The position numbers were made by a program, and so were the translations under genes. The notes under the pieces are model-generated. The model ran no database searches. It was given only the letters and a program-made list of their open reading frames with translations, and was not told the DNA's origin. This document shows positions 1 to 7,664 of a stretch of 7,664 nt of DNA, one piece after another; the stretch's first letter is position 1; each line of letters starts with the position of its first letter. Source of the stretch: a virus (taxonomy: Duplodnaviria > Heunggongvirae > Uroviricota > Caudoviricetes); IMG/VR virus record IMGVR_UViG_2537562019_000010; one strand, 5' to 3'.

Positions 1-141
1 CGACTGTTCAACGACTGTCGCTGTTTTTTTCGCATCACTTTCCGTACCGGAAAAATGACGCCTGACTCTGGCCATCTGCTCGTCAAATCTGGCCGCATCC
101 AGACTCAAATCAACGACCAGATCGCCTACCGGTTCAGCCAT
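1..141 (-). CDS. H: Tail tape-measure protein H, N-terminal fragment (gene continues past window start)
   Basis: Minus-strand translation from ATG at 139-141 reads MAEPVGDLVVDLSLDAARFDEQMARVRRHFSGTESDAKKTATVVEQS, which matches my recollection of the lambda gpH N-terminus. The start overlaps the T stop (ATGGCTGA), as in lambda. Too short in-window to appear in the ORF track. Confidence 0.78.
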   Translation of the reverse strand, partial: MAEPVGDLVVDLSLDAARFDEQMARVRRHFSGTESDAKKTATVVEQS

Positions 142-568
142 ACCGGACTCCTCCTGCGATCCCTTCTGATACTGTCATCAGCATTACGTCATCCTCCGTC
201 ATGTCCGCCACATCCGGGGAAGCGGGGATAACTTCATTCCCGTCCGGGCCAAAGCGGACGCCTCCGGCAAGCCCTGCCGCTTTCTGCATCAGCACATCAT
301 CTTCAGGCTCTTCGTCAGCCTCGCGCCGGTTCAGCAGACTGAAATCCAGCGGATGCATATCCGGATCGCTGAAAAACAGGCTGAGTACGGTGTACGTCAG
401 CCCGGAAAAGTGCATATCCAGCAGAACATCATGAAAATAATGGGTACTGTAAAAGCGGTGCCAGTCGGCATACTCCGTGGATGACATCCCGGCAAGCATG
501 GCACGCCAGTCGGGTCGCCCCATCTCACGCGCCAGTTTCAGGGCAAAACTCAGCTCACCATCGAACAC
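134..568 (-). CDS. T: Tail assembly chaperone T reading frame (normally made only as a G-T fusion by -1 ribosomal frameshift)
   Basis: ORF track 134..568 (144 aa), MFDGELSFALKLAREMGRPDWRAMLAGMSSTEYADWHRFY..., near-identical to recalled lambda gpT. The apparent GTG 'start' at 566-568 is simply the first codon after the slippery site, not an independent initiation site. Confidence 0.85.
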   Translation of the reverse strand: MFDGELSFALKLAREMGRPDWRAMLAGMSSTEYADWHRFYSTHYFHDVLLDMHFSGLTYTVLSLFFSDPDMHPLDFSLLNRREADEEPEDDVLMQKAAGLAGGVRFGPDGNEVIPASPDVADMTEDDVMLMTVSEGIAGGVRYG

Positions 569-970
569 TTTCCCGCAGAAACAGGCTCTGCAGGCCCGGC
601 GTCCTCTGCCTGTTCAGGAGCATCATTCACAACAAACTCAGACATACCGGACAGACGCACACCACATTTTCAGCATGAGAAATTGCCTCCGTGGGCCAGG
701 TGGTAAGCACTTCCTGCTCAATCTGTTTAACGGCTTCATTCATGGAAGGCAGCTTTGTCTTCTGCGGATGGTTATGCCACAGGGACATCGCCACCAGAAA
801 AGCACCGGTTCTGACGAGTCTTCCACACTAAACTTCCGGTTGCTGTCTGACTCCGCCTGTTCTGCCTGCCGTTTCATCAGGGCGAGATGCTCAATACGCT
901 GCAGGGCTGACAGTTCAGAAAGCGTGACGGTCACACCGTTATGTTCAAATGATTCGGTTTTCAGGAACAT
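550..970 (-). pseudogene. G: Tail assembly chaperone G, apparently disrupted by two 1-bp deletions
   Basis: ORF track 740..970 (76 aa) begins MFLKTESFEHNGVTVTLSELSALQRIEHLALMKRQAEQAESDSNRKF (lambda gpG N-terminus), then diverges and stops at 740. The recognisable gpG sequence continues in a second frame (RTGAFLVAMSLWHNHPQK...AISHAENVV) and then a third (RLSGM.EFVVN.APEQ.EDAGPAEPVSAGK) to a stop at 550. G start to T start is 402 nt (same frame), where the G/T architecture needs 404 nt (T in the -1 frame). Confidence 0.72.
568..574 (-). promoter_or_regulatory. Programmed -1 ribosomal frameshift slippery heptamer GGGAAAG (G to G-T)
   Basis: Minus-strand sequence reads ...GCG GGA AAG TGT TCG..., with GGGAAAG immediately 5' of the first T-frame codon. 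This is the classic lambda G/T slippery site and position. Confidence 0.6.
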
Positions 971-985
971 CGCTGACTCTCCGGA

Positions 986-1726
986 TTAACTGGCGGTGAC
1001 GTTGATTTCTGCAACCGCAGCAAGTTCACCATTACCGGATACGACCGGAATGTTGACCTTGCCTGCAGCAACACCTTTCACGGTGATGGTCATACCACTG
1101 ACCGACACGGTGGCTTTTGTTTTATCCGCAGACACCGCACGGAAGCTCTTGTCGGTTGCGCCTTCCGGCTGGAATGCCACGGTCAGCGTGGTGCTCTGCC
1201 CTTTCACCACCGAAGTGCTGGCAGGCGTCACGGTCATGCCGGTTGCCGCTGTTACCGTGCTGCGATCTTCTGCCATCGACGGACGTCCCACGTTGGTGAC
1301 TTTCACCGTGCGGGTGATCACTTCCTTCGCCGTCACCGCCTTACCGATACTGCTGACCCAGCCGCGGAACACATCGACCGTGCCGTTCGGGAAGCGGATT
1401 TTATAGGCACGGGTATCCCCTTCATTAAACCACGCCAGCAGCGCCTGCTGCCCCTGCTCTCCGGGCATCCACGCCAGCGTGAAGCTGGTATCTCCGGCAG
1501 ATTTCTGCCCCTGCCCGGTCGCAGTCCAGTCCGCATCTTCATCATCGAGATAGCTGTCGTCATAGGACTCAGCGGTCAGTTCGCCGGGCGTCAGGTCTTT
1601 AACCTTTGCCAGACGCGACCAGTCAACGTCTGAAAGCGGGTTCGCATAAGGGTCACCGCTCCCGTTATAAACCCACAGTGTGGTCCCGGCCCCTTTCACC
1701 GGTGCCAGAGGATTTGGTGTTGGCAT
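986..1726 (-). CDS. V: Major tail tube protein V (246 aa) with C-terminal Ig-like domain
   Basis: ORF track 986..1756. Lambda gpV homology begins at [20 protein letters not shown]..., so the start is placed at the ATG at 1724-1726, preceded by GAGGA. Length is 246 aa as in lambda. The C-terminal ~90 aa look like the Ig-like domain ([52 protein letters not shown]). Confidence 0.9.
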
Positions 1727-1733
1727 ATCGTCC

Positions 1734-2129
1734 TCACATTTCATAGGTAATGACATAAGTCAGATCGGCTGAACTCCACAGGCCCGCATCATCGTCGCGC
1801 CGGTAGTCATAGCCACTGGCCACCATACTGGTGATCAAATCTGACAGTGCCGGGATATCGCTCATCACCGGATAAATCCGGGACTCCATCCACGAATCCA
1901 GCTCTGAATCCGGCACCTGAGCAGGCAGGAAAACTTCAATATGCAGCTCCGCCTGCCAGGTATCGCTGTCCAGCTCTTCGCCCGTGTATTCAGCGCCGGT
2001 GAGATAAACGGCAATTGCCGGAAAATCTTCCTCATCAAAAACAGCGGGGCGACCATCAAAAAGCGTCGCCCCGGTGTCATGCTTCTCCAGTGCATCCAGT
2101 ACGGCTGCACGGAGTTCAGTATGTTTCAT
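1734..2129 (-). CDS. U: Tail tube terminator protein U
   Basis: ORF track 1734..2129 (131 aa), [22 protein letters not shown]...LTYVITYEM, lambda gpU length and sequence. The start ATG overlaps the Z stop (ATGA at 2126-2129). Confidence 0.9.
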
Positions 2130-2704
2130 CGCTTTATTACCATTCTCAGTTGATGCTGCAGCGCATAGCCCAGCTCTTTCGGAAGACGTTCACGCCGTAT
2201 CCGTTCAATATTCTGTTTAAACGCCGTGGTAAGCGGCACCGCCATCGGGATTTTCACCACATCAATGGGGTAACGGTTTTTCCCGGCCACACGCTGCATG
2301 ACATGCCACCGGCCATTTTTCAGTTGCTGAATAAACGCGCCGGGAATACGACGGTTTCCCACCACAAGCACGCTGCCGCCACCTTTCAGGGATGAACGCT
2401 GCCCCTTTTTACGACGTCTGCGGCGGGAAAGGACAACCCGCGCGTTACCCAGCCTGATTACGGGCAAATCCCCCCGGTTAACCCTGATTCTGGCCTGCGG
2501 ATTTTTGACCGTGGCCCTTTTCAGCCTGGCCCTTTCCTTTACCAGTTTCCGGCGTACCTTTGTCTCACGGGCAACCTGTGCCGCCGACTGCGATATCGCG
2601 GATGAAGCAACGCGGTTAATGGCCATTGCTGACGCACCGGGCACCGCCGTTCTGCTGATACGGCTGAGGTTTTCAACAGCCTGCTCAAGACCTTTTATGG
2701 CCAT
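2126..2704 (-). CDS. Z: Tail completion protein Z
   Basis: ORF track 2126..2704 (192 aa), MAIKGLEQAVENLSRISRTAVPGA...[10 protein letters not shown], matches lambda gpZ in length and sequence. Confidence 0.9.
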   Translation of the reverse strand: MAIKGLEQAVENLSRISRTAVPGASAMAINRVASSAISQSAAQVARETKVRRKLVKERARLKRATVKNPQARIRVNRGDLPVIRLGNARVVLSRRRRRKKGQRSSLKGGGSVLVVGNRRIPGAFIQQLKNGRWHVMQRVAGKNRYPIDVVKIPMAVPLTTAFKQNIERIRRERLPKELGYALQHQLRMVIKR

Positions 2705-2715
2705 ACATCCCCCTT

Positions 2716-3069
2716 TCAGCGGCGACGGTTAACGGCAGGCGGTACGCCCCGTCCAAGCCAGAGATGACAGCTTCCGCCATCATCCGGCGTAACCCGGTCC
2801 ACCCAGAAGTTTTCCTCGCCGATGGTCAGTGTGTCTCCACGCCGCAGCTGCCGCACATCATCAGTCCGGACAAACAGGGACGGGCTGGAGCCTTCAACGC
2901 GCACCCCCTGTCCGGCATAGCTGATATTTTCAGGGTCATCAAAAACACCACGTATCACAGCACCGGACAGCTCACCGGATGTCATGGTGGCTGACGTTCC
3001 CATGTACCCGCGTATCGTTTCATCGGCGCGGGCAATGGCAGCATCGAACAGGTTATCGGAATCAGCCAC
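2716..3069 (-). CDS. FII: Head-tail joining protein FII
   Basis: ORF track 2716..3069 (117 aa), MADSDNLFDAAIARADETIRGYMGTSAT...HLWLGRGVPPAVNRRR, lambda gpFII length and sequence. Confidence 0.9.
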   Translation of the reverse strand: MADSDNLFDAAIARADETIRGYMGTSATMTSGELSGAVIRGVFDDPENISYAGQGVRVEGSSPSLFVRTDDVRQLRRGDTLTIGEENFWVDRVTPDDGGSCHLWLGRGVPPAVNRRR

Positions 3070-3080
3070 AGCGCCTCCCG

Positions 3081-3479
3081 TTATTGCATTCTGGCCAGGC
3101 CACGTTCTGTCATTTCGGCTGCCACACCGGCAGAGACACGAAACGCCGTTCCCGGCAGCACAAATGCCACAGGTTTATCCCGCGTGGCGTGAAGTGCATC
3201 AGTATGCAGCGTCACCAGTGCCACGACCGTGACCAGTTCAGCCGTATCCTGAATCACGGTATCCGGCTGCGCTGATATCACCTCATTTTCATGCCCGGTC
3301 AGCACATTTTCCCGGCTGAGAGGGGTGTCCTGACCGGCAGTTTCATCCGTGTCATCAAGCTCTTCTTCCAGCTCTGCCACACGAAGCGCCAGTTCTTCTT
3401 TCGTTCCCGTCAAACTGATATCGCGGTTCAGTTGCTCACCCAGCTCCTGAAGACGGGCAATCAGTTCATCTTTCGTCAT
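3081..3479 (-). CDS. FI: DNA packaging / head assembly protein FI
   Basis: ORF track 3081..3518, trimmed to the internal ATG (MTKDELIARLQELGEQLNRD...) that matches the lambda gpFI start (132 aa) and is preceded by a strong GGAGGAG RBS. The longer upstream start would lie inside the E/FI hairpin. Confidence 0.86.
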   Translation of the reverse strand: MTKDELIARLQELGEQLNRDISLTGTKEELALRVAELEEELDDTDETAGQDTPLSRENVLTGHENEVISAQPDTVIQDTAELVTVVALVTLHTDALHATRDKPVAFVLPGTAFRVSAGVAAEMTERGLARMQ

Positions 3480-3500
3480 GAACTCCTCCACAGAGAGAAA

Positions 3501-3518
3501 ATGGCCCCGAAGGGCCAT
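3501..3518 (-). terminator. Intergenic stem-loop (7-bp GC-rich stem, UUCG tetraloop on the transcript) just 3' of E, followed by a U/C-rich tract
   Basis: Plus-strand ATGGCCC-CGAA-GGGCCAT is a perfect inverted repeat. On the minus-strand transcript it is AUGGCCC-UUCG-GGGCCAU followed by UUUCUCUCUG and then the FI RBS. Function (partial terminator, RNA stabiliser or attenuator) is inferred. Confidence 0.4.
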
Positions 3519-3520
3519 GA

Positions 3521-4546
3521 TTACGCCAGTTGAACGGACACGAACTCATCAGGATCAGCCAGCAGCATCAGCGGTGCTGACTGAATCATGGTGAACTCAC
3601 GCGCCGGATCGCCGGTGGTCACCCAGTTTTTCGGGTAACGGGCAGAGGCGTTAATGCCTTCGCGCTGTGCGTCCGCATCCTGAATGCAGCCATAGGTGCG
3701 CAGACCGCGAGCCTGAGTGTTCCCCAGCACCATCGTGTTGTCCGGCAGGAAGTTCTTTTTGACGCCGTTTTCCACGTACTGTCCGGAATACACGACGATG
3801 GCCACATCGCCATACATTCCCTTATAGGACACCGCTTTGCCCAGGTCTTTTACCGCTGTCTCCAGCTCGGAATGAGAGCCGCGACGGGTATCCAGCTTCT
3901 CCTTGACGGCTTTGAAGGAACGGAACAGCGCCCAGCCTTTCGGATCAAACACGATGATATTCACCACACCGCTGGCGTTCAGCGCGTAGGCTTCGATATC
4001 GTCGGTCGGGTCATACGTGGACTTGTCGCGCTTGCTCCACCCCGTGCCGCCGGACTGCGTGATGTTATTCGCCGCACTGCGGCCCATATCCACCTCAACC
4101 GGATCGAAGGCTTCACCGGTCATGGTGTATTTGCCCTTAAGCACGGCAGAAACTGCCTGCATCTCTTCGACCTGGGCAATCGCCAGATTTTCGTCACGCA
4201 TGTTCTGCAGGATAATACGGCGACGACGGTAAGCCGGGTCCGCCAGATTCTGCGGATCTTCATCCGGCAGGCGACGCAGGGTCATCTGCGGATTCACCTC
4301 ATGCTTGGGTTTGACATATCCCGGCGTAAATTCAGAGGTGGAGCCGCCACGGGAACGGATAACCTCACCGGAAACAATCGGCGAAACGTACAGCGCCATG
4401 TTTACCAGTCCAGGAATTTGTGAGAGATAGACTTTCTCCGTGGTGAAAGGATAGGTTTCACGGAAAAACAGGCGCAGAAACAGCGGATCGAACTTAAAGT
4501 GATGCTGGGTCGATGCCAGTAATTCTGCAGTTGTATATACAGACAT
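3521..4546 (-). CDS. E: Major capsid protein E (HK97 fold family)
   Basis: ORF track 3521..4546 (341 aa), MSVYTTAELLASTQHHFKFDPLFLRLFFRETYPFTTEKVYLSQIPGLVNMALYVSPIVSGE...DEFVSVQLA, lambda gpE length and near-identical sequence. Confidence 0.95.
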   Translation of the reverse strand: MSVYTTAELLASTQHHFKFDPLFLRLFFRETYPFTTEKVYLSQIPGLVNMALYVSPIVSGEVIRSRGGSTSEFTPGYVKPKHEVNPQMTLRRLPDEDPQNLADPAYRRRRIILQNMRDENLAIAQVEEMQAVSAVLKGKYTMTGEAFDPVEVDMGRSAANNITQSGGTGWSKRDKSTYDPTDDIEAYALNASGVVNIIVFDPKGWALFRSFKAVKEKLDTRRGSHSELETAVKDLGKAVSYKGMYGDVAIVVYSGQYVENGVKKNFLPDNTMVLGNTQARGLRTYGCIQDADAQREGINASARYPKNWVTTGDPAREFTMIQSAPLMLLADPDEFVSVQLA

Positions 4547-4555
4547 AAATTATTT

Positions 4556-4583
4556 CCATAAAAAAAGCCGCACAGGCGGCCTT
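4556..4583 (-). terminator. Intergenic hairpin plus T-run between D stop and E start (intrinsic-terminator-like)
   Basis: Minus-strand reads AAAGGCCGC-CUGU-GCGGC followed by a run of at least 7 U, then the E start region. A GC stem plus U-tract is intrinsic-terminator-like. Coordinates approximate. Confidence 0.4.
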
Positions 4584-4601
4584 TGTTGATGAAGGGGAAG
4601 A

Positions 4602-4934
4602 TTAAACGATGCTGATTGCCGTTCCGGCAAACGCGGTCCGTTTTTTCGTCTCGTCGCTGGCAGCCTCCGGCCAGAGCACATCCTCATAACGGAACGTGCC
4701 GGACTTGTAGAACGTCAGTGTGGTGCTGGTCTGGTCAGCAGCAACTGCAAGAATGCCAACGGCAGCACCGTCGGTGGTGCCATCCCACGCAACCAGCTTA
4801 CGGGTGGAGGTGTCCAGCATCAGCGGGGTCATTGCAGGCGCTTTCGCACTCAACCCGCCGGGCGCGGTTGCGGTATGAGCCGGGTCACTGTTGCCCAGCG
4901 GCTGGTAATGGGTAAAGGTTTCTTTGCTCGTCAT
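4602..4934 (-). CDS. D: Head decoration protein D
   Basis: ORF track 4602..4940. Lambda gpD homology begins at the second Met ([27 protein letters not shown]...AGTAISIV, 110 aa), with AAGGGA upstream. Confidence 0.9.
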
Positions 4935-4943
4935 AAACATCCC

Positions 4944-5549
4944 TTACACTGGTGTGTTCAGCAAATCGTTAACGGCATCAGATGCCGGGTTACCTGCAGC
5001 CAGCGGTGCCGGTGTACCCTGCATCAGACGATCCAGCGCAGTGTCACTGCGCGCCTGTGCACTCTGTGGTGCTGCAGCCAGAATGCGGCGGGCCGTTTCC
5101 ACGGTCATTCCGGGGGTTTCTGCCAGAACGCGCGCCTGTTCTTCGCGTCCGTGAGCCTCCTCACAGTTGAGGATCCCCATAATGCGGCTGTTTTCTGCCG
5201 CAACCGCAGCGGTGATCTGCGCGTTCACGTCCGGCTGCGCCGCGCTGGCGTTTTCGCCCTCCGTCGCTGGCACCACGTCAGTAACGTCAGCCTGCGAAGC
5301 AGTGGCTGAAACAGTTGTTGATTGAGTCTCTTTGGTCATTCGCCCTCCTGAGAGACGGGATTTATGTGCATCCAGTGCATCACGCATGACGGTGATCGCA
5401 TCGGTGCTGTTAACAAGTTCATCAGCCAGTCCGGCATCAATGGCCTCCTGACCGCTGTACACTGCAGCCTCGGTATCCAGCACAGCCTGCACAGACAGGC
5501 CGGTATATGCCGACACCTTCTGCGCAAACATCCGGCGGGTTGCGTCCAT
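4944..5549 (-). CDS. Nu3: Capsid scaffolding protein Nu3 (in-frame internal start within C; shares the C-terminal 201 aa)
   Basis: Internal Met in the C frame (MDATRRMFAQKVSAYTGLSVQ...) gives a 201-aa product, the same nested arrangement and length as lambda Nu3. Coordinates derived by frame arithmetic from the C stop. Confidence 0.72.
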   Translation of the reverse strand: MDATRRMFAQKVSAYTGLSVQAVLDTEAAVYSGQEAIDAGLADELVNSTDAITVMRDALDAHKSRLSGGRMTKETQSTTVSATASQADVTDVVPATEGENASAAQPDVNAQITAAVAAENSRIMGILNCEEAHGREEQARVLAETPGMTVETARRILAAAPQSAQARSDTALDRLMQGTPAPLAAGNPASDAVNDLLNTPV

Positions 5550-6263
5550 CCGGGACTGCAGTGTCTCCCGGACGTCATCCGGAAGATGGCTGTAAGGATT
5601 GCCATCCACCTTATGGCTGCCGCTGTAAATCAGCGTGATTTCCACGCCCTGTTTCTCCAGGGCAGCACCGTAATTACTGTGAGCCATCATGACGCCGATG
5701 GAGCCTGTCCGGGCGGTCTGCGTGACCAGACGCCGGGAGGCGGCGCTGGCAAGCAGCTGACCTGCACTGCAGTTCATGTCGTTGGCCAGCGCCCATACCG
5801 GTTTTATGTCTCGCACACGGGCGATGATGTCAGCACAGTCAAATGCTCCCGCCACCATCCCGCCCGGTGTGTCCATATCCAGCAGAATGCCGTCCACCAT
5901 CGGATCGCTGGCAGCCTGTTGCAGACGGGCGATAATGCCGTTGTAACCGGTCATCCCCGAATACGGCTGCAGCGCCCGCGTCCGGCTGACCAGCGTGCCG
6001 GACACCGGCAGCACGGCGATGCCGTTCATGACCTGATAACTGCGGGCCTGTCGTGGTCCGTCATCATCACCGGATAACGCCAGCGGCGCGGGTGCCTCTC
6101 CGGCAGTCAGGCTGTCGCCGGACACCGCATCCGTCAGGCGGCTGATCCCAAGCTGGCCTGCAAGCGCACAAAAGAAAACCCGCGCATAGGCGGGTTCAAG
6201 CATCAGCGGCTCATTAAAGGCCATGCTGGCAATATGCGGGAGATTACGCAGCTCTGCTGTCAC
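4944..6263 (-). CDS. C: Capsid assembly / prohead protease C (S49 family)
   Basis: ORF track 4944..6398 is a long open frame. Lambda gpC homology (TAELRNLPHIASMAFNEPLMLEPAYARVFF...) begins at a GTG at 6261-6263, preceded by GGAGGAG, giving 439 aa as in lambda. The extra upstream codons are out-of-frame read-through of the B 3' end. The C start overlaps the B stop by 20 nt, as in lambda. Confidence 0.85.
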   Translation of the reverse strand: MTAELRNLPHIASMAFNEPLMLEPAYARVFFCALAGQLGISRLTDAVSGDSLTAGEAPAPLALSGDDDGPRQARSYQVMNGIAVLPVSGTLVSRTRALQPYSGMTGYNGIIARLQQAASDPMVDGILLDMDTPGGMVAGAFDCADIIARVRDIKPVWALANDMNCSAGQLLASAASRRLVTQTARTGSIGVMMAHSNYGAALEKQGVEITLIYSGSHKVDGNPYSHLPDDVRETLQSRMDATRRMFAQKVSAYTGLSVQAVLDTEAAVYSGQEAIDAGLADELVNSTDAITVMRDALDAHKSRLSGGRMTKETQSTTVSATASQADVTDVVPATEGENASAAQPDVNAQITAAVAAENSRIMGILNCEEAHGREEQARVLAETPGMTVETARRILAAAPQSAQARSDTALDRLMQGTPAPLAAGNPASDAVNDLLNTPV

Positions 6264-7664
6264 TCTTCTCCTCCTCTGTTGATTGTCGCAGTCCGGATTC
6301 AAATGTCGCTGCCGCCCAGGCGGGCGGTTTAAGACCGGCTGCGCGGCGCTCCATCGTTTCACGGACCTGCTGGGCAAAAATTTCCTGATAGTCGTCACCG
6401 CGTTTTGCGCACTCTTTCTCGTAGGTACTCAGTCCGGCTTCTATCAGCATCACCGCTTCCTGTACTTCTTTCAGACCATCGATGGCCATACGACCGGAGC
6501 CTATCCAGTCGCAGTTCCCCCAGGCACTGCGGGCTTCCTGAAAACTGAAGCGCGCTTTTGAAGGTAACGTCACCACGCGGCGAACGATGGCCTCTTCCAG
6601 CCAGCACAGAAACATCTGGCTCGCCTGACGGGATGCGACGAATTTTCGCCGCCCCATAAAGTACGCCCAGACTCGTTCGCACTGGCCCGTGCCGTGGAGT
6701 AGCTCATCTGGGCGTAATTCCGGGAAAGCTGCTCATACGAGACACCCAGCCCGGCAGCGATATACCGCAACAGTGACTGCTCAAACACGGAGTAGCCGTT
6801 ATCCGTGTCCTGAGCCGTCTGCAGGTTCAGTGAGTCCCCCGGCATCAGGTGCGGCACTTTTGCGCCTCCCAGCGGACCGGTGCGCGGCGTAATACGCGGC
6901 AATTTCACCAATCCAGCCGGTCAGCTTGTCCCGCTGCTCCTGACTGTTCGCGCCCAGAATAAAATCCATCGCTGACTGCGTATCCAGCTCACTTTCAATG
7001 GTGGCGGCATACATCGCCTTCACAATGGCGCTCTGCAGCTGCGTGTTCTGCAGCGTGTCGAGCATCTTCATCTGCTCCATCACGCTGTAAAACACATTTG
7101 CACCGCGAGTCTGCCCGTCCTCCACGGGTTCAAAAACGTGAATGAACGAGGCGCGCCCGCCGGGTAACTCACGGGGTATCCATGTCCATTTCTGCGGCAT
7201 CCAGCCAGGATACCCGTCCTCGCTGACGTAATATCCCAGCGCCGCGCCGCTGTCATTAATCTGCACACCGGCACGGCAGTTCCGGCTGTCGCCGGTATTG
7301 TTCGGGTTGCTGATGCGCTTCGGGCTGACCATCCGGAACTGTGTCCGGAACAGCCGCGACGAACTGGTATCCCAGGTGGCCTGAACGAACAGTTCACCGT
7401 TAAAGGCGTGCATGGCCACACCTTCCCGAATCATCATGGTAAACGTGCGTTTTCGCTCAACGTCAATGCAGCAGCAGTCATCCTCGGCAAACTCTTTCCA
7501 TGCCGCTTCAACCTCGCGGGAAAAGGCACGGGCGTCTTCCTCCCCGATGCCCAGATAGCGCCAGCTTGGACGATGACTGAGCCGGAAAAAAGACCCGACG
7601 ATATGATCCTGATGCAGCTGGATGGCGTTGGCGGCATAGCCGTTATTGCGTACCAGATCGTCTG
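6244..7664 (-). pseudogene. B: Portal protein B, 3' ~1.4 kb (5' end beyond window), apparently interrupted by two compensating frameshifts
   Basis: Three consecutive ORF-track pieces together match recalled lambda gpB in order. 6799..7664 (open to the window edge; FRLSHRPSWRYLG...IPRELPGGRASFIHVFEPVEDGQTRGANVFYSVMEQMKMLDTLQNTQLQSAIVKAMYAATIESELDT...) stops at 6799. 6570..6911 is in a second frame (...GGAKVPHLMPGDSLNLQTAQDTDNGYSVFEQSLLRYIAAGLGVSYEQLSR...ARASANES). 6244..6657 is back in the first frame (MGRRKFVASRQASQMFLCWLEE...MAIDGLKEVQEAVMLIEAGLSTYEKE...). Confidence 0.8.

What the first reader, a model, noticed from the sequence alone, without database searches (positions are those of the whole stretch)
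6244..7664. Portal gene B is split across three frames by two compensating indels; the main frame hits a stop at 6799
The portal is essential for prohead assembly and DNA packaging. Here the lambda-like portal sequence runs in one frame from the window edge to about 6895, switches frame for about 75 codons (about 6895 to 6670), then returns to the original frame to the stop at 6244. By eye, the upstream event looks like a 1-bp insertion in a GCCGCGCACC stretch and the downstream one a 1-bp deletion near GAGTCT(T)GGGCG. Translation in the entry frame terminates at 6799. A +1/-1 pair about 225 bp apart is unusual: it may be genuine pseudogenisation of a cryptic prophage or a pair of sequencing or assembly errors. 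Either way the annotation consequence is large.
Basis: partly seen in the sequence, partly recalled or inferred. Interest (0 to 1): 0.55.

Follow-up and report, generated by a model that had tools for sequence, protein, structure and literature searches.

The report
Portal gene frame breaks, likely assembly errors
A lambda-type phage portal gene looks broken in this sequence because three single bases are missing, but the gaps are unique to one short contig of a 2013 draft E. coli assembly and most likely come from how the contig was built, so the finding is ordinary.

Summary
The frame pattern is real in the sequence. The lambda-like portal gene B (minus strand, 7664-6244) leaves its frame near 6884, hits TAA at 6801-6799, and is back in frame from 6669 to its stop at 6244. 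The cause is not a +1/-1 pair. It is three 1-bp deletions, at 6884/6883, 6873/6872 and 6670/6669, net -3. Putting back A, T and G gives an uninterrupted portal (residues 61-533) that differs from lambda gpB at 4 residues.

The window is the whole 7,664-bp contig APXB01000065.1 of ETEC strain 179550, built from 100-bp Illumina reads with Celera Assembler. None of 3,168 complete E. coli genomes has any of the gaps, and 197 are otherwise identical over 301 nt. So are 61 IMG/VR portal alleles. Exact scans of three collections for the deletion-bearing sequences found nothing.

Two more private 1-bp deletions break tail gene G. Four of the five missing bases lie on sites where natural alleles differ. 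Two of them lie on differences between the two module copies that sit together in related Bangladeshi ETEC genomes.

Best reading (about 0.7): consensus artefacts from mixed prophage copies. A real pseudogene (about 0.2) needs the reads (SRR446711) to exclude. Low interest.

The parts
6244..7664 (-). Partial lambda-family portal gene B (gpB residues 61-533 plus stop), as assembled broken into three frames
   Evidence: 98.6-99.0% nucleotide identity to lambda and other portal genes. Pfam PF05136 hits lie in two different frames. After re-inserting 3 bases it is a continuous ORF with 4 aa differences from lambda gpB.
6883..6884 (-). Deletion 1: the base between 6884 and 6883 is missing (third position of codon 320; A in most alleles, C or T in a few)
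   Evidence: The site differs (A vs C) between the two co-resident module copies of ETEC-2264.
6872..6873 (-). Deletion 2: the base between 6873 and 6872 is missing (third position of codon 324; T or G in natural alleles)
   Evidence: The site differs (T vs G) between the two ETEC-2264 copies.
6799..6801 (-). TAA stop reached by the entry frame, 27 out-of-frame codons after deletion 1
6669..6670 (-). Deletion 3: the G between 6670 and 6669 is missing (third position of codon 392, invariant G in all panels). The frame returns to the original from here.
6244..6657 (-). 137-aa ORF that is the true C-terminus of the portal (residues 397-533), called as a separate gene in the deposited annotation (ENA72308.1)
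550..970 (-). Tail assembly chaperone gene G, broken by two further private 1-bp deletions near 818/817 and 658/657. The G-T slippery site GGGAAAG at 574-568 is intact.
   Evidence: The deposited gene calls are 76-aa and 38-aa fragments.
1..7664 (.). The whole of contig APXB01000065.1 (E. coli 179550, GCA_000356365.2). It starts inside B and ends inside the tape-measure gene H.

Best explanation
The portal gene of this prophage is most probably intact in the bacterium. The three missing bases in B, and the two in G, are consensus errors in a draft contig.

Shown:
- The contig is a 7.66-kb piece of the conserved lambda-type head-tail module.
- The module is present in two or more near-identical copies in related ETEC genomes.
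- The assembly was made from 100-bp Illumina reads with Celera Assembler, an overlap-layout-consensus program that calls each base from a column of a read multi-alignment.

Inferred:
- Reads from different module copies were piled into one contig.
- Where the copies differ, a mismatch was represented as two staggered gap columns, each was outvoted, and the base was dropped.
- This would leave 1-bp deletions at or next to inter-copy SNPs, and a per-SNP patchwork of alleles around them.
For: 1. Provenance. The window equals the whole contig APXB01000065.1 of GCA_000356365.2. The strain is E. coli 179550, a CS7 ETEC from Bangladesh, with reads in SRR446711. It was sequenced as HiSeq 100-bp reads and assembled with Celera Assembler (PMC5469772, PMC6301781).

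2. Privacy.
- In 3,168 complete E. coli genomes covering the 301-nt stretch, the best identity is 99.0%, which is exactly the three gaps. 197 genomes are otherwise identical.
- 80 IMG/VR portals (61 alleles) are all 1,599 nt with no indel.
- Scans for the deletion-bearing sequences gave 0 hits in viral, GTDB-genome and metagenome contigs, against at least 120 viral hits for the intact version.
- The 76-aa G fragment exists only on this contig. The 137-aa B fragment exists only here and on one contig with a different lesion.

3. Pattern.
- There are five private 1-bp deletions and no insertion, in two clusters (P about 0.002 for the clustering). The other 37 full-length haplotypes carry 0-2 rare small indels each (Poisson P about 8e-7 for five).
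- 4 of 5 deleted columns are polymorphic among natural haplotypes, against 12.5% of all columns (P about 1e-3). All three in B are third codon positions.
- None lies in a homopolymer run of 3 or more.

4. Copy mixing.
- ETEC-2264 and 90-9280, both Bangladeshi ETEC and the closest complete genomes, each hold two full copies of this module.
- Deletions 1 and 2 fall exactly on two of the three sites where those copies differ within 13 nt, at a switch from B-type to A-type.
- Around both G deletions the window alternates SNP by SNP between the two commonest G alleles. No such local haplotype occurs in 235 held loci, and the site-4 version occurs nowhere in IMG/VR.

5. Mutational load. In B there are 3 indels and 0 substitutions against a common allele over 301 nt. 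Window-wide there are only about 2-4 private substitutions against 5 private indels.
Against: - No reads or coverage could be inspected, so copy mixing in this particular assembly is inferred, not shown.
- The two copies are documented in related strains, not in 179550 itself.
- Deletion 3 is on a base that is invariant in every panel. It lies between two SNPs 19 nt apart, not on one.
- A haplotype-painting test did not single out the window as more mosaic than natural haplotypes: 23 switches plus 22 mismatches, within the natural range.
- 41 informative sites match neither ETEC-2264 copy, so a third allele source has to be assumed.
- Real frame-breaking lesions do occur in this module. Examples are a 2-bp deletion in Z of the complete ATCC 8739 genome and an amber codon in B on a Logan contig.
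Confidence: 0.7

Rival explanations
1. The deletions are real. One lambdoid prophage of strain 179550 is a decaying, cryptic element whose portal gene (three 1-bp deletions) and tail chaperone gene G (two 1-bp deletions) have been inactivated. It would make a truncated portal (residues 1-320 plus 27 foreign residues) and no phage particles.
For: - Frame-breaking lesions occur naturally in this module. Z is annotated as frameshifted in the complete ATCC 8739 genome. There is a TGG>TAG amber at portal codon 393 in an unrelated Logan contig. One or two rare 1-bp deletions occur in 3 of 37 panel haplotypes.
- The window's overall mosaicism is not abnormal.
- High-coverage Illumina data rarely give consensus indels at a unique locus (own knowledge).
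Against: - Five indels against about 2-4 private substitutions. With the roughly 1:10 indel-to-substitution ratio seen in E. coli mutation-accumulation studies (own knowledge), P is about 2e-4 to 3e-3.
- None of the deletions is in a homopolymer run, where spontaneous indels concentrate.
- 4 of 5 lie on allele-differing sites and all three in B are third codon positions. Mutation has no reason to prefer these.
- All nine other genes are intact.
- No other assembly carries the same fragments, including the other CS7 isolates of the same study such as 180200.
- The local SNP-by-SNP allele patchwork at the G deletions is unknown elsewhere.
Confidence: 0.2
2. Plain sequencing or consensus error unrelated to copy number: locally poor or thin read coverage in two spots of a single-copy prophage produced miscalled gaps.
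For: - The deletions cluster in two short stretches, about 215 nt and 160 nt.
- The B stretch is GC-rich.
- This is a draft-quality 2013 assembly.
Against: - It does not explain why the gaps fall on allele-differing sites, or why the flanks at the G sites are a patchwork of two alleles.
- Illumina reads have very few indel errors outside homopolymers (own knowledge).
- A 7.66-kb contig that begins and ends inside genes of a module present a median of 2 times per E. coli genome looks like a repeat contig.
Confidence: 0.08
3. The frame pattern is functional: programmed frameshifting or another recoding event yields a full-length portal from a split gene.
For: Only the fact that the frame returns to the original after the third deletion.
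Against: - No homolog among more than 3,000 E. coli prophages, 85 phage records and at least 596 IMG/VR contigs has the pattern.
- The entry frame meets a stop 27 codons after the first lesion.
- There is no slippery heptamer at GCCGCGCACC or GAGTCTGGGCG (direct reading).
- Three separate shifts would be required.
Confidence: 0.01

Closest known systems
Bacteriophage lambda portal protein gpB (NP_040583.1; Pfam PF05136 Phage_portal_2)
   Same: - 98.6% nucleotide identity over the window's 1,465 nt.
- Same gene order: B, C/Nu3, D, E, FI, FII, Z, U, V, G, T, H.
- After restoring three bases, the protein differs from gpB at 4 of 473 residues.
   Different: As deposited, the gene lacks three bases and reads in three frames. 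The annotated products are a 287-aa N-terminal piece and a 137-aa C-terminal piece.
Genuine frameshift pseudogenes in lambdoid prophage head-tail modules (for example Z of the E. coli ATCC 8739 prophage, annotated 'frameshifted')
   Same: A small deletion breaks a structural gene in an otherwise intact-looking module.
   Different: - That case is a single 2-bp event in a finished genome.
- Here there are five 1-bp events in a short draft contig.
- Four of them lie on allele-differing sites, with patchwork flanks.
Consensus errors in collapsed near-identical repeats of short-read overlap-layout-consensus assemblies (general class, own knowledge)
   Same: - A short contig ending inside genes of a multi-copy element.
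- Made with Celera Assembler from 100-bp reads.
- Errors are located where the copies differ.
   Different: - Not demonstrated with reads for this contig.
- One of the five gaps is not on a known inter-copy difference.

Membership tests
Lambda-family portal protein (gpB, PF05136) | Significant match to the PF05136 profile | tested here: met
   Entry-frame piece: E = 2e-59, profile positions 32-257. Middle-frame piece: E = 4.8e-22, profile positions 278-349. Both are above the gathering score of 32.9.
Lambda-family portal protein (gpB, PF05136) | Position between W and the C/Nu3 protease-scaffold gene in a lambda-type head module | tested here: met
   C (S49 peptidase), D, E and FI follow immediately downstream. 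W lies beyond the contig end, but precedes B in every homologous locus fetched.
Lambda-family portal protein (gpB, PF05136) | Single uninterrupted ORF of about 533 codons | tested here: not met
   As assembled the gene is split by three 1-bp deletions, with a stop at 6801-6799. It is continuous once the 3 bases are restored.
Genuine prophage pseudogene | The same lesion seen in reads or in independent assemblies of the strain or lineage | tested here: not met
   - No other contig in the 15-billion-protein collection encodes the G fragment.
- The 137-aa B fragment recurs only on a contig with a different lesion.
- No matches to the deletion-bearing sequences in three collections.
- The reads themselves could not be examined.
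Genuine prophage pseudogene | Indels accompanied by a proportionate load of private substitutions | tested here: not met
   0 substitutions against 3 indels over 301 nt in B. About 2-4 private substitutions against 5 indels window-wide.
Programmed frameshift / recoding | Frame pattern conserved among homologs, with a slippery site at the shift | tested here: not met
   All homologs are continuous. There is no slippery heptamer at the junctions. By contrast, the known G-T slippery site GGGAAAG is present at 574-568.
Collapsed-repeat consensus artefact | Sequence comes from a draft contig built by column-wise consensus of short reads | tested here: met
   Whole contig APXB01000065.1. HiSeq 100-bp reads, Celera Assembler.
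Collapsed-repeat consensus artefact | The element is present in two or more near-identical copies in the same genome | tested here: inconclusive
   - Two full copies exist in each of the closest complete genomes, ETEC-2264 and 90-9280.
- The median is 2 places per E. coli genome.
- Copy number in 179550 itself is not testable here.
Collapsed-repeat consensus artefact | Errors coincide with positions where the copies differ | tested here: met
   - 4 of 5 deleted columns are polymorphic (P about 1e-3).
- Deletions 1 and 2 lie on A/B-differing sites.
- Deletion 3 does not lie on such a site.
Collapsed-repeat consensus artefact | Raised read depth and mixed alleles in the reads over the contig | not testable with these tools
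   Needs SRR446711 mapped to the contig.

The most novel reading that the evidence does not exclude
The five deletions are real and were made in the cell. Recombination between two co-resident, about 97% identical prophage modules produced heteroduplex DNA. Error-prone processing of the mismatches then removed single bases exactly at SNP sites, leaving a recombination scar that also inactivated B and G.
Probability: 0.03. Interest if true: 0.4.

Novelty: not a real feature. Interest (0 to 1): 0.06.

Why it matters
The practical consequence is for annotation. The deposited record splits the portal into 'putative portal Head protein Gp4' fragments and G into two fragments. These fragments have propagated into RefSeq and UniRef-type collections as singleton proteins. 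A scan that counts this prophage as defective, or these fragments as new small proteins, would be misled.

If the lesions were real, the prophage could not assemble proheads or tails. That is an everyday outcome for cryptic prophages and would not be surprising either.

Tried and rejected
1. Looked for an independent assembly of the same reads in Logan, through exact-protein look-ups of V, FII and Z. Only unrelated samples came back, at most 98.2% identical and all with intact B and/or G. No contig of SRR446711 surfaced.

2. Haplotype painting of the window against 36 other full-length haplotypes, to prove chimerism. The window's 23 switches plus 22 mismatches sit inside the natural range, so the test is inconclusive. 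I do not use it as support.

3. Tried to find a third module copy in ETEC-2264 or 90-9280 that would explain the 41 'neither A nor B' sites. The tool lists only the best place per record and these genomes did not reach the listed rows. This is unresolved.

4. Searched for the window's Z-region haplotype in complete genomes. The best identity was 98.8%. This is suggestive of an unusual combination of alleles, but the Z protein itself is natural (37 contigs).

5. Literature search by accession found nothing. The strain number did lead to the source papers.

It was replaced by a search of the 235 held loci.

7. Considered 454-type homopolymer error. Rejected because no deletion is in a run of 3 or more and the platform was Illumina.

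Full report
**What is there.** The window is the reverse strand of a lambda-type head-tail module: B (partial), C/Nu3, D, E, FI, FII, Z, U, V, G, T and the start of H. The portal part (7664-6244) is 98.6-99.0% identical in DNA to lambda B and to thousands of E. coli prophage portals.

**The observation.**
- The entry frame has its first full codon at 7662-7660, which is gpB residue 61.
- It runs to TAA at 6801-6799.
- Portal homology continues in a second frame, inside ORF 6570..6911.
- It returns to the entry frame in ORF 6244..6657.
- Pfam PF05136 matches the entry-frame piece at profile positions 32-257 and the middle-frame piece at 278-349.
- The three-frame layout and the stop at 6799 are therefore confirmed.

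**The lesions.** Alignments to lambda, PhiR11_1 and several E. coli prophages show three single-base deletions and no insertion.

| Deletion | Context | Position | Codon (third position) |
|---|---|---|---|
| 1 | GCCGC[A]GCACC | between 6884 and 6883 | 320 |
| 2 | GGTCCG[T/G]CTGG | between 6873 and 6872 | 324 |
| 3 | GAGTC[G]TGGGCG | between 6670 and 6669 | 392 |

- Three -1 events always restore the frame, so nothing is being 'compensated'. The stop at 6799 would truncate the product in any case, giving residues 1-320 plus 27 foreign residues.
- Re-inserting A, T and G gives a continuous ORF for residues 61-533. It has four amino-acid differences from lambda gpB and four from the ATCC 8739 portal.

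**The rest of the window.** A whole-window alignment to four references found exactly five window-private 1-bp deletions and no insertion. Three are in B. The other two are in the tail chaperone gene G, near 818/817 and 658/657. G is therefore also in pieces. C, D, E, FI, FII, Z, U, V and T are full length.

**Are the deletions seen anywhere else? No.**
- Over a 301-nt query spanning all three B sites, 3,168 complete E. coli genomes have the region. The best identity is 99.0%, which is exactly the three gaps. 197 records are otherwise identical, for example ATCC 8739.
- Eighty IMG/VR portal genes (61 distinct alleles) are all 1,599 nt without indels or stops.
- Exact scans for the deletion-bearing sequences gave 0 hits in IMG/VR, the GTDB species genomes and JGI metagenome contigs. 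A control pattern for the intact sequence hit at least 120 viral contigs.
- In a collection of 15 billion proteins, the 76-aa G fragment exists only on this contig.
- The 137-aa C-terminal portal fragment exists only here and on one Logan contig. That contig has a different lesion, TGG>TAG at codon 393, in the same frame.

**Provenance.**
- The window is the entire contig APXB01000065.1 (7,664 bp) of GCA_000356365.2.
- The proteins are annotated as Escherichia coli 179550.
- Table S1 of Sahl et al. 2017 (PMC5469772) lists 179550 as a CS7 ETEC from Bangladesh, accession APXB00000000, reads SRR446711.
- The methods state HiSeq 2000 100-bp reads assembled with Celera Assembler.
- PMC6301781 also lists it among CS7 ETEC isolates.
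- The contig starts inside B and ends inside H. It lies in a module that occurs a median of two times per E. coli genome.

**Evidence that separates artefact from real mutation.**
- *Number.* Among 37 other full-length haplotypes, 32 have no rare small indel and the rest have one or two. Five in one sequence has Poisson P of about 8e-7. Both hypotheses would predict an outlier, so this alone does not decide.
- *Clustering.* The five sites fall in two clusters, P about 0.002.
- *Position.* Four of the five deleted columns are polymorphic among natural haplotypes, against 12.5% of all columns (P about 1e-3). All three B sites are third codon positions. Spontaneous mutation has no reason to choose sites where alleles differ. 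A consensus built from mixed alleles does.
- *Co-resident copies.* The closest complete genomes are two Bangladeshi ETEC, 90-9280 (O114:H49) and ETEC-2264, and each carries two full copies of the module. In ETEC-2264 the copies differ at 266 sites over the window span. Deletions 1 and 2 fall on two of the three differences that lie within 13 nt, exactly where the window switches from the B-type to the A-type copy.
- *Patchwork in G.* Around both G deletions the window alternates SNP by SNP between the two commonest G alleles. Only 3-4 local haplotypes exist among 50-61 natural sequences I hold, and neither patchwork is among them. The site-4 patchwork with an intact frame is also absent from IMG/VR.
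- *Mutational load.* In B there are three indels and no substitution against a common allele. Window-wide, 25-mer novelty leaves only about 2-4 private substitutions next to the five indels. With an indel share of about one tenth of spontaneous mutations in E. coli (own knowledge of mutation-accumulation work), that split has P of about 2e-4 to 3e-3.
- *Sequence context.* None of the deletions lies in a homopolymer run of three or more.

**What does not fit, or could not be shown.**
- I could not see reads or depth, so mixing of copies in this assembly is inferred.
- Deletion 3 removes a base that is invariant in all panels. It lies between two SNPs 19 nt apart.
- A haplotype-painting test did not mark the window as more mosaic than natural haplotypes. 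I draw no support from the A/B alternation as such.
- Forty-one informative sites match neither ETEC-2264 copy. Some are natural alleles seen elsewhere, so a third source must be assumed.
- Real lesions do occur in this module: Z of ATCC 8739 and the amber codon on the Logan contig.

**Mechanism proposed.**
- Shown: this is a draft contig from an overlap-layout-consensus assembler. The module is multi-copy in relatives. The gaps lie on or beside inter-copy differences.
- Inferred: reads from two or three copies were stacked together. Some mismatches were laid out as staggered gap columns and lost the vote. This produced 1-bp deletions and a mixed-allele consensus.
- A de Bruijn contig could not contain k-mers that are absent from the reads, which is why the assembler type matters.

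**Comparison with known things.** The gene is an ordinary member of the lambda gpB / PF05136 family in every respect except continuity of the ORF as deposited. No natural family carries this frame pattern, and programmed recoding is excluded for practical purposes.

**Verdict.** The frame breaks exist in the sequence, but they are most probably not a biological feature (confidence about 0.7). A genuine, strain-specific pseudogene remains possible (about 0.2), and mapping SRR446711 would settle it in minutes. Either way the finding is routine, so interest is low.

Noticed in passing
window 550-970 (- strand): Tail assembly chaperone gene G carries two further private 1-bp deletions (near 818/817 and 658/657) and is annotated as 76-aa and 38-aa fragments. 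The local sequence at both sites is a SNP-by-SNP mix of the two common G alleles. The G-T slippery site GGGAAAG (574-568) and T are intact.
   Followed up: yes
L008:3972-5573 (Logan SRR28032547_203): An unrelated contig has the portal split into 392 aa plus 137 aa in the same frame by a TGG>TAG amber codon at residue W393, two bases from the window's deletion 3. It could be a natural nonsense mutation or a laboratory B-amber phage. The sample was not identified.
   Followed up: partly
L226:5161-5737 (E. coli ATCC 8739, NZ_CP022959.1): The tail gene Z of this finished genome's prophage is annotated 'frameshifted' and shows a private 2-bp deletion. This is a bona fide example of a frame-breaking lesion in the same module.
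   Followed up: partly
L004, L225 (90-9280) versus L005, L093 (ETEC-2264): The two co-resident module copies in these two related ETEC genomes are reciprocal recombinants of each other. The portal-C-D half of one copy is joined to the FI-V half of the other, with the crossover in or near E. Each needs one switch and 0 mismatches when painted from the others. This is either real exchange between prophages in one genome or a mis-join in one 'complete' assembly.
   Followed up: partly
window 4944-6263 (C), 3521-4546 (E), 986-1726 (V): The exact C and E protein sequences occur on no other contig in a collection of 15 billion proteins. V occurs on only two other, unrelated contigs. Single private substitutions sit at 4041 (in E) and 2678 (in Z). 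These may be further consensus mixtures or errors, or rare alleles.
   Followed up: partly
L187 (IMG/VR contig): Another draft-derived copy of this module contains 24 N characters. Two of them are at the T/C polymorphic sites 12 nt upstream and 7 nt downstream of the window's deletion 3. This shows that mixed-copy ambiguity at these positions occurs in other assemblies.
   Followed up: no
window 1-141 and 7487-7664: The contig begins at portal codon 61 and ends 47 codons into the tape-measure gene H. Both ends are therefore inside conserved genes rather than at prophage or repeat boundaries.
   Followed up: no
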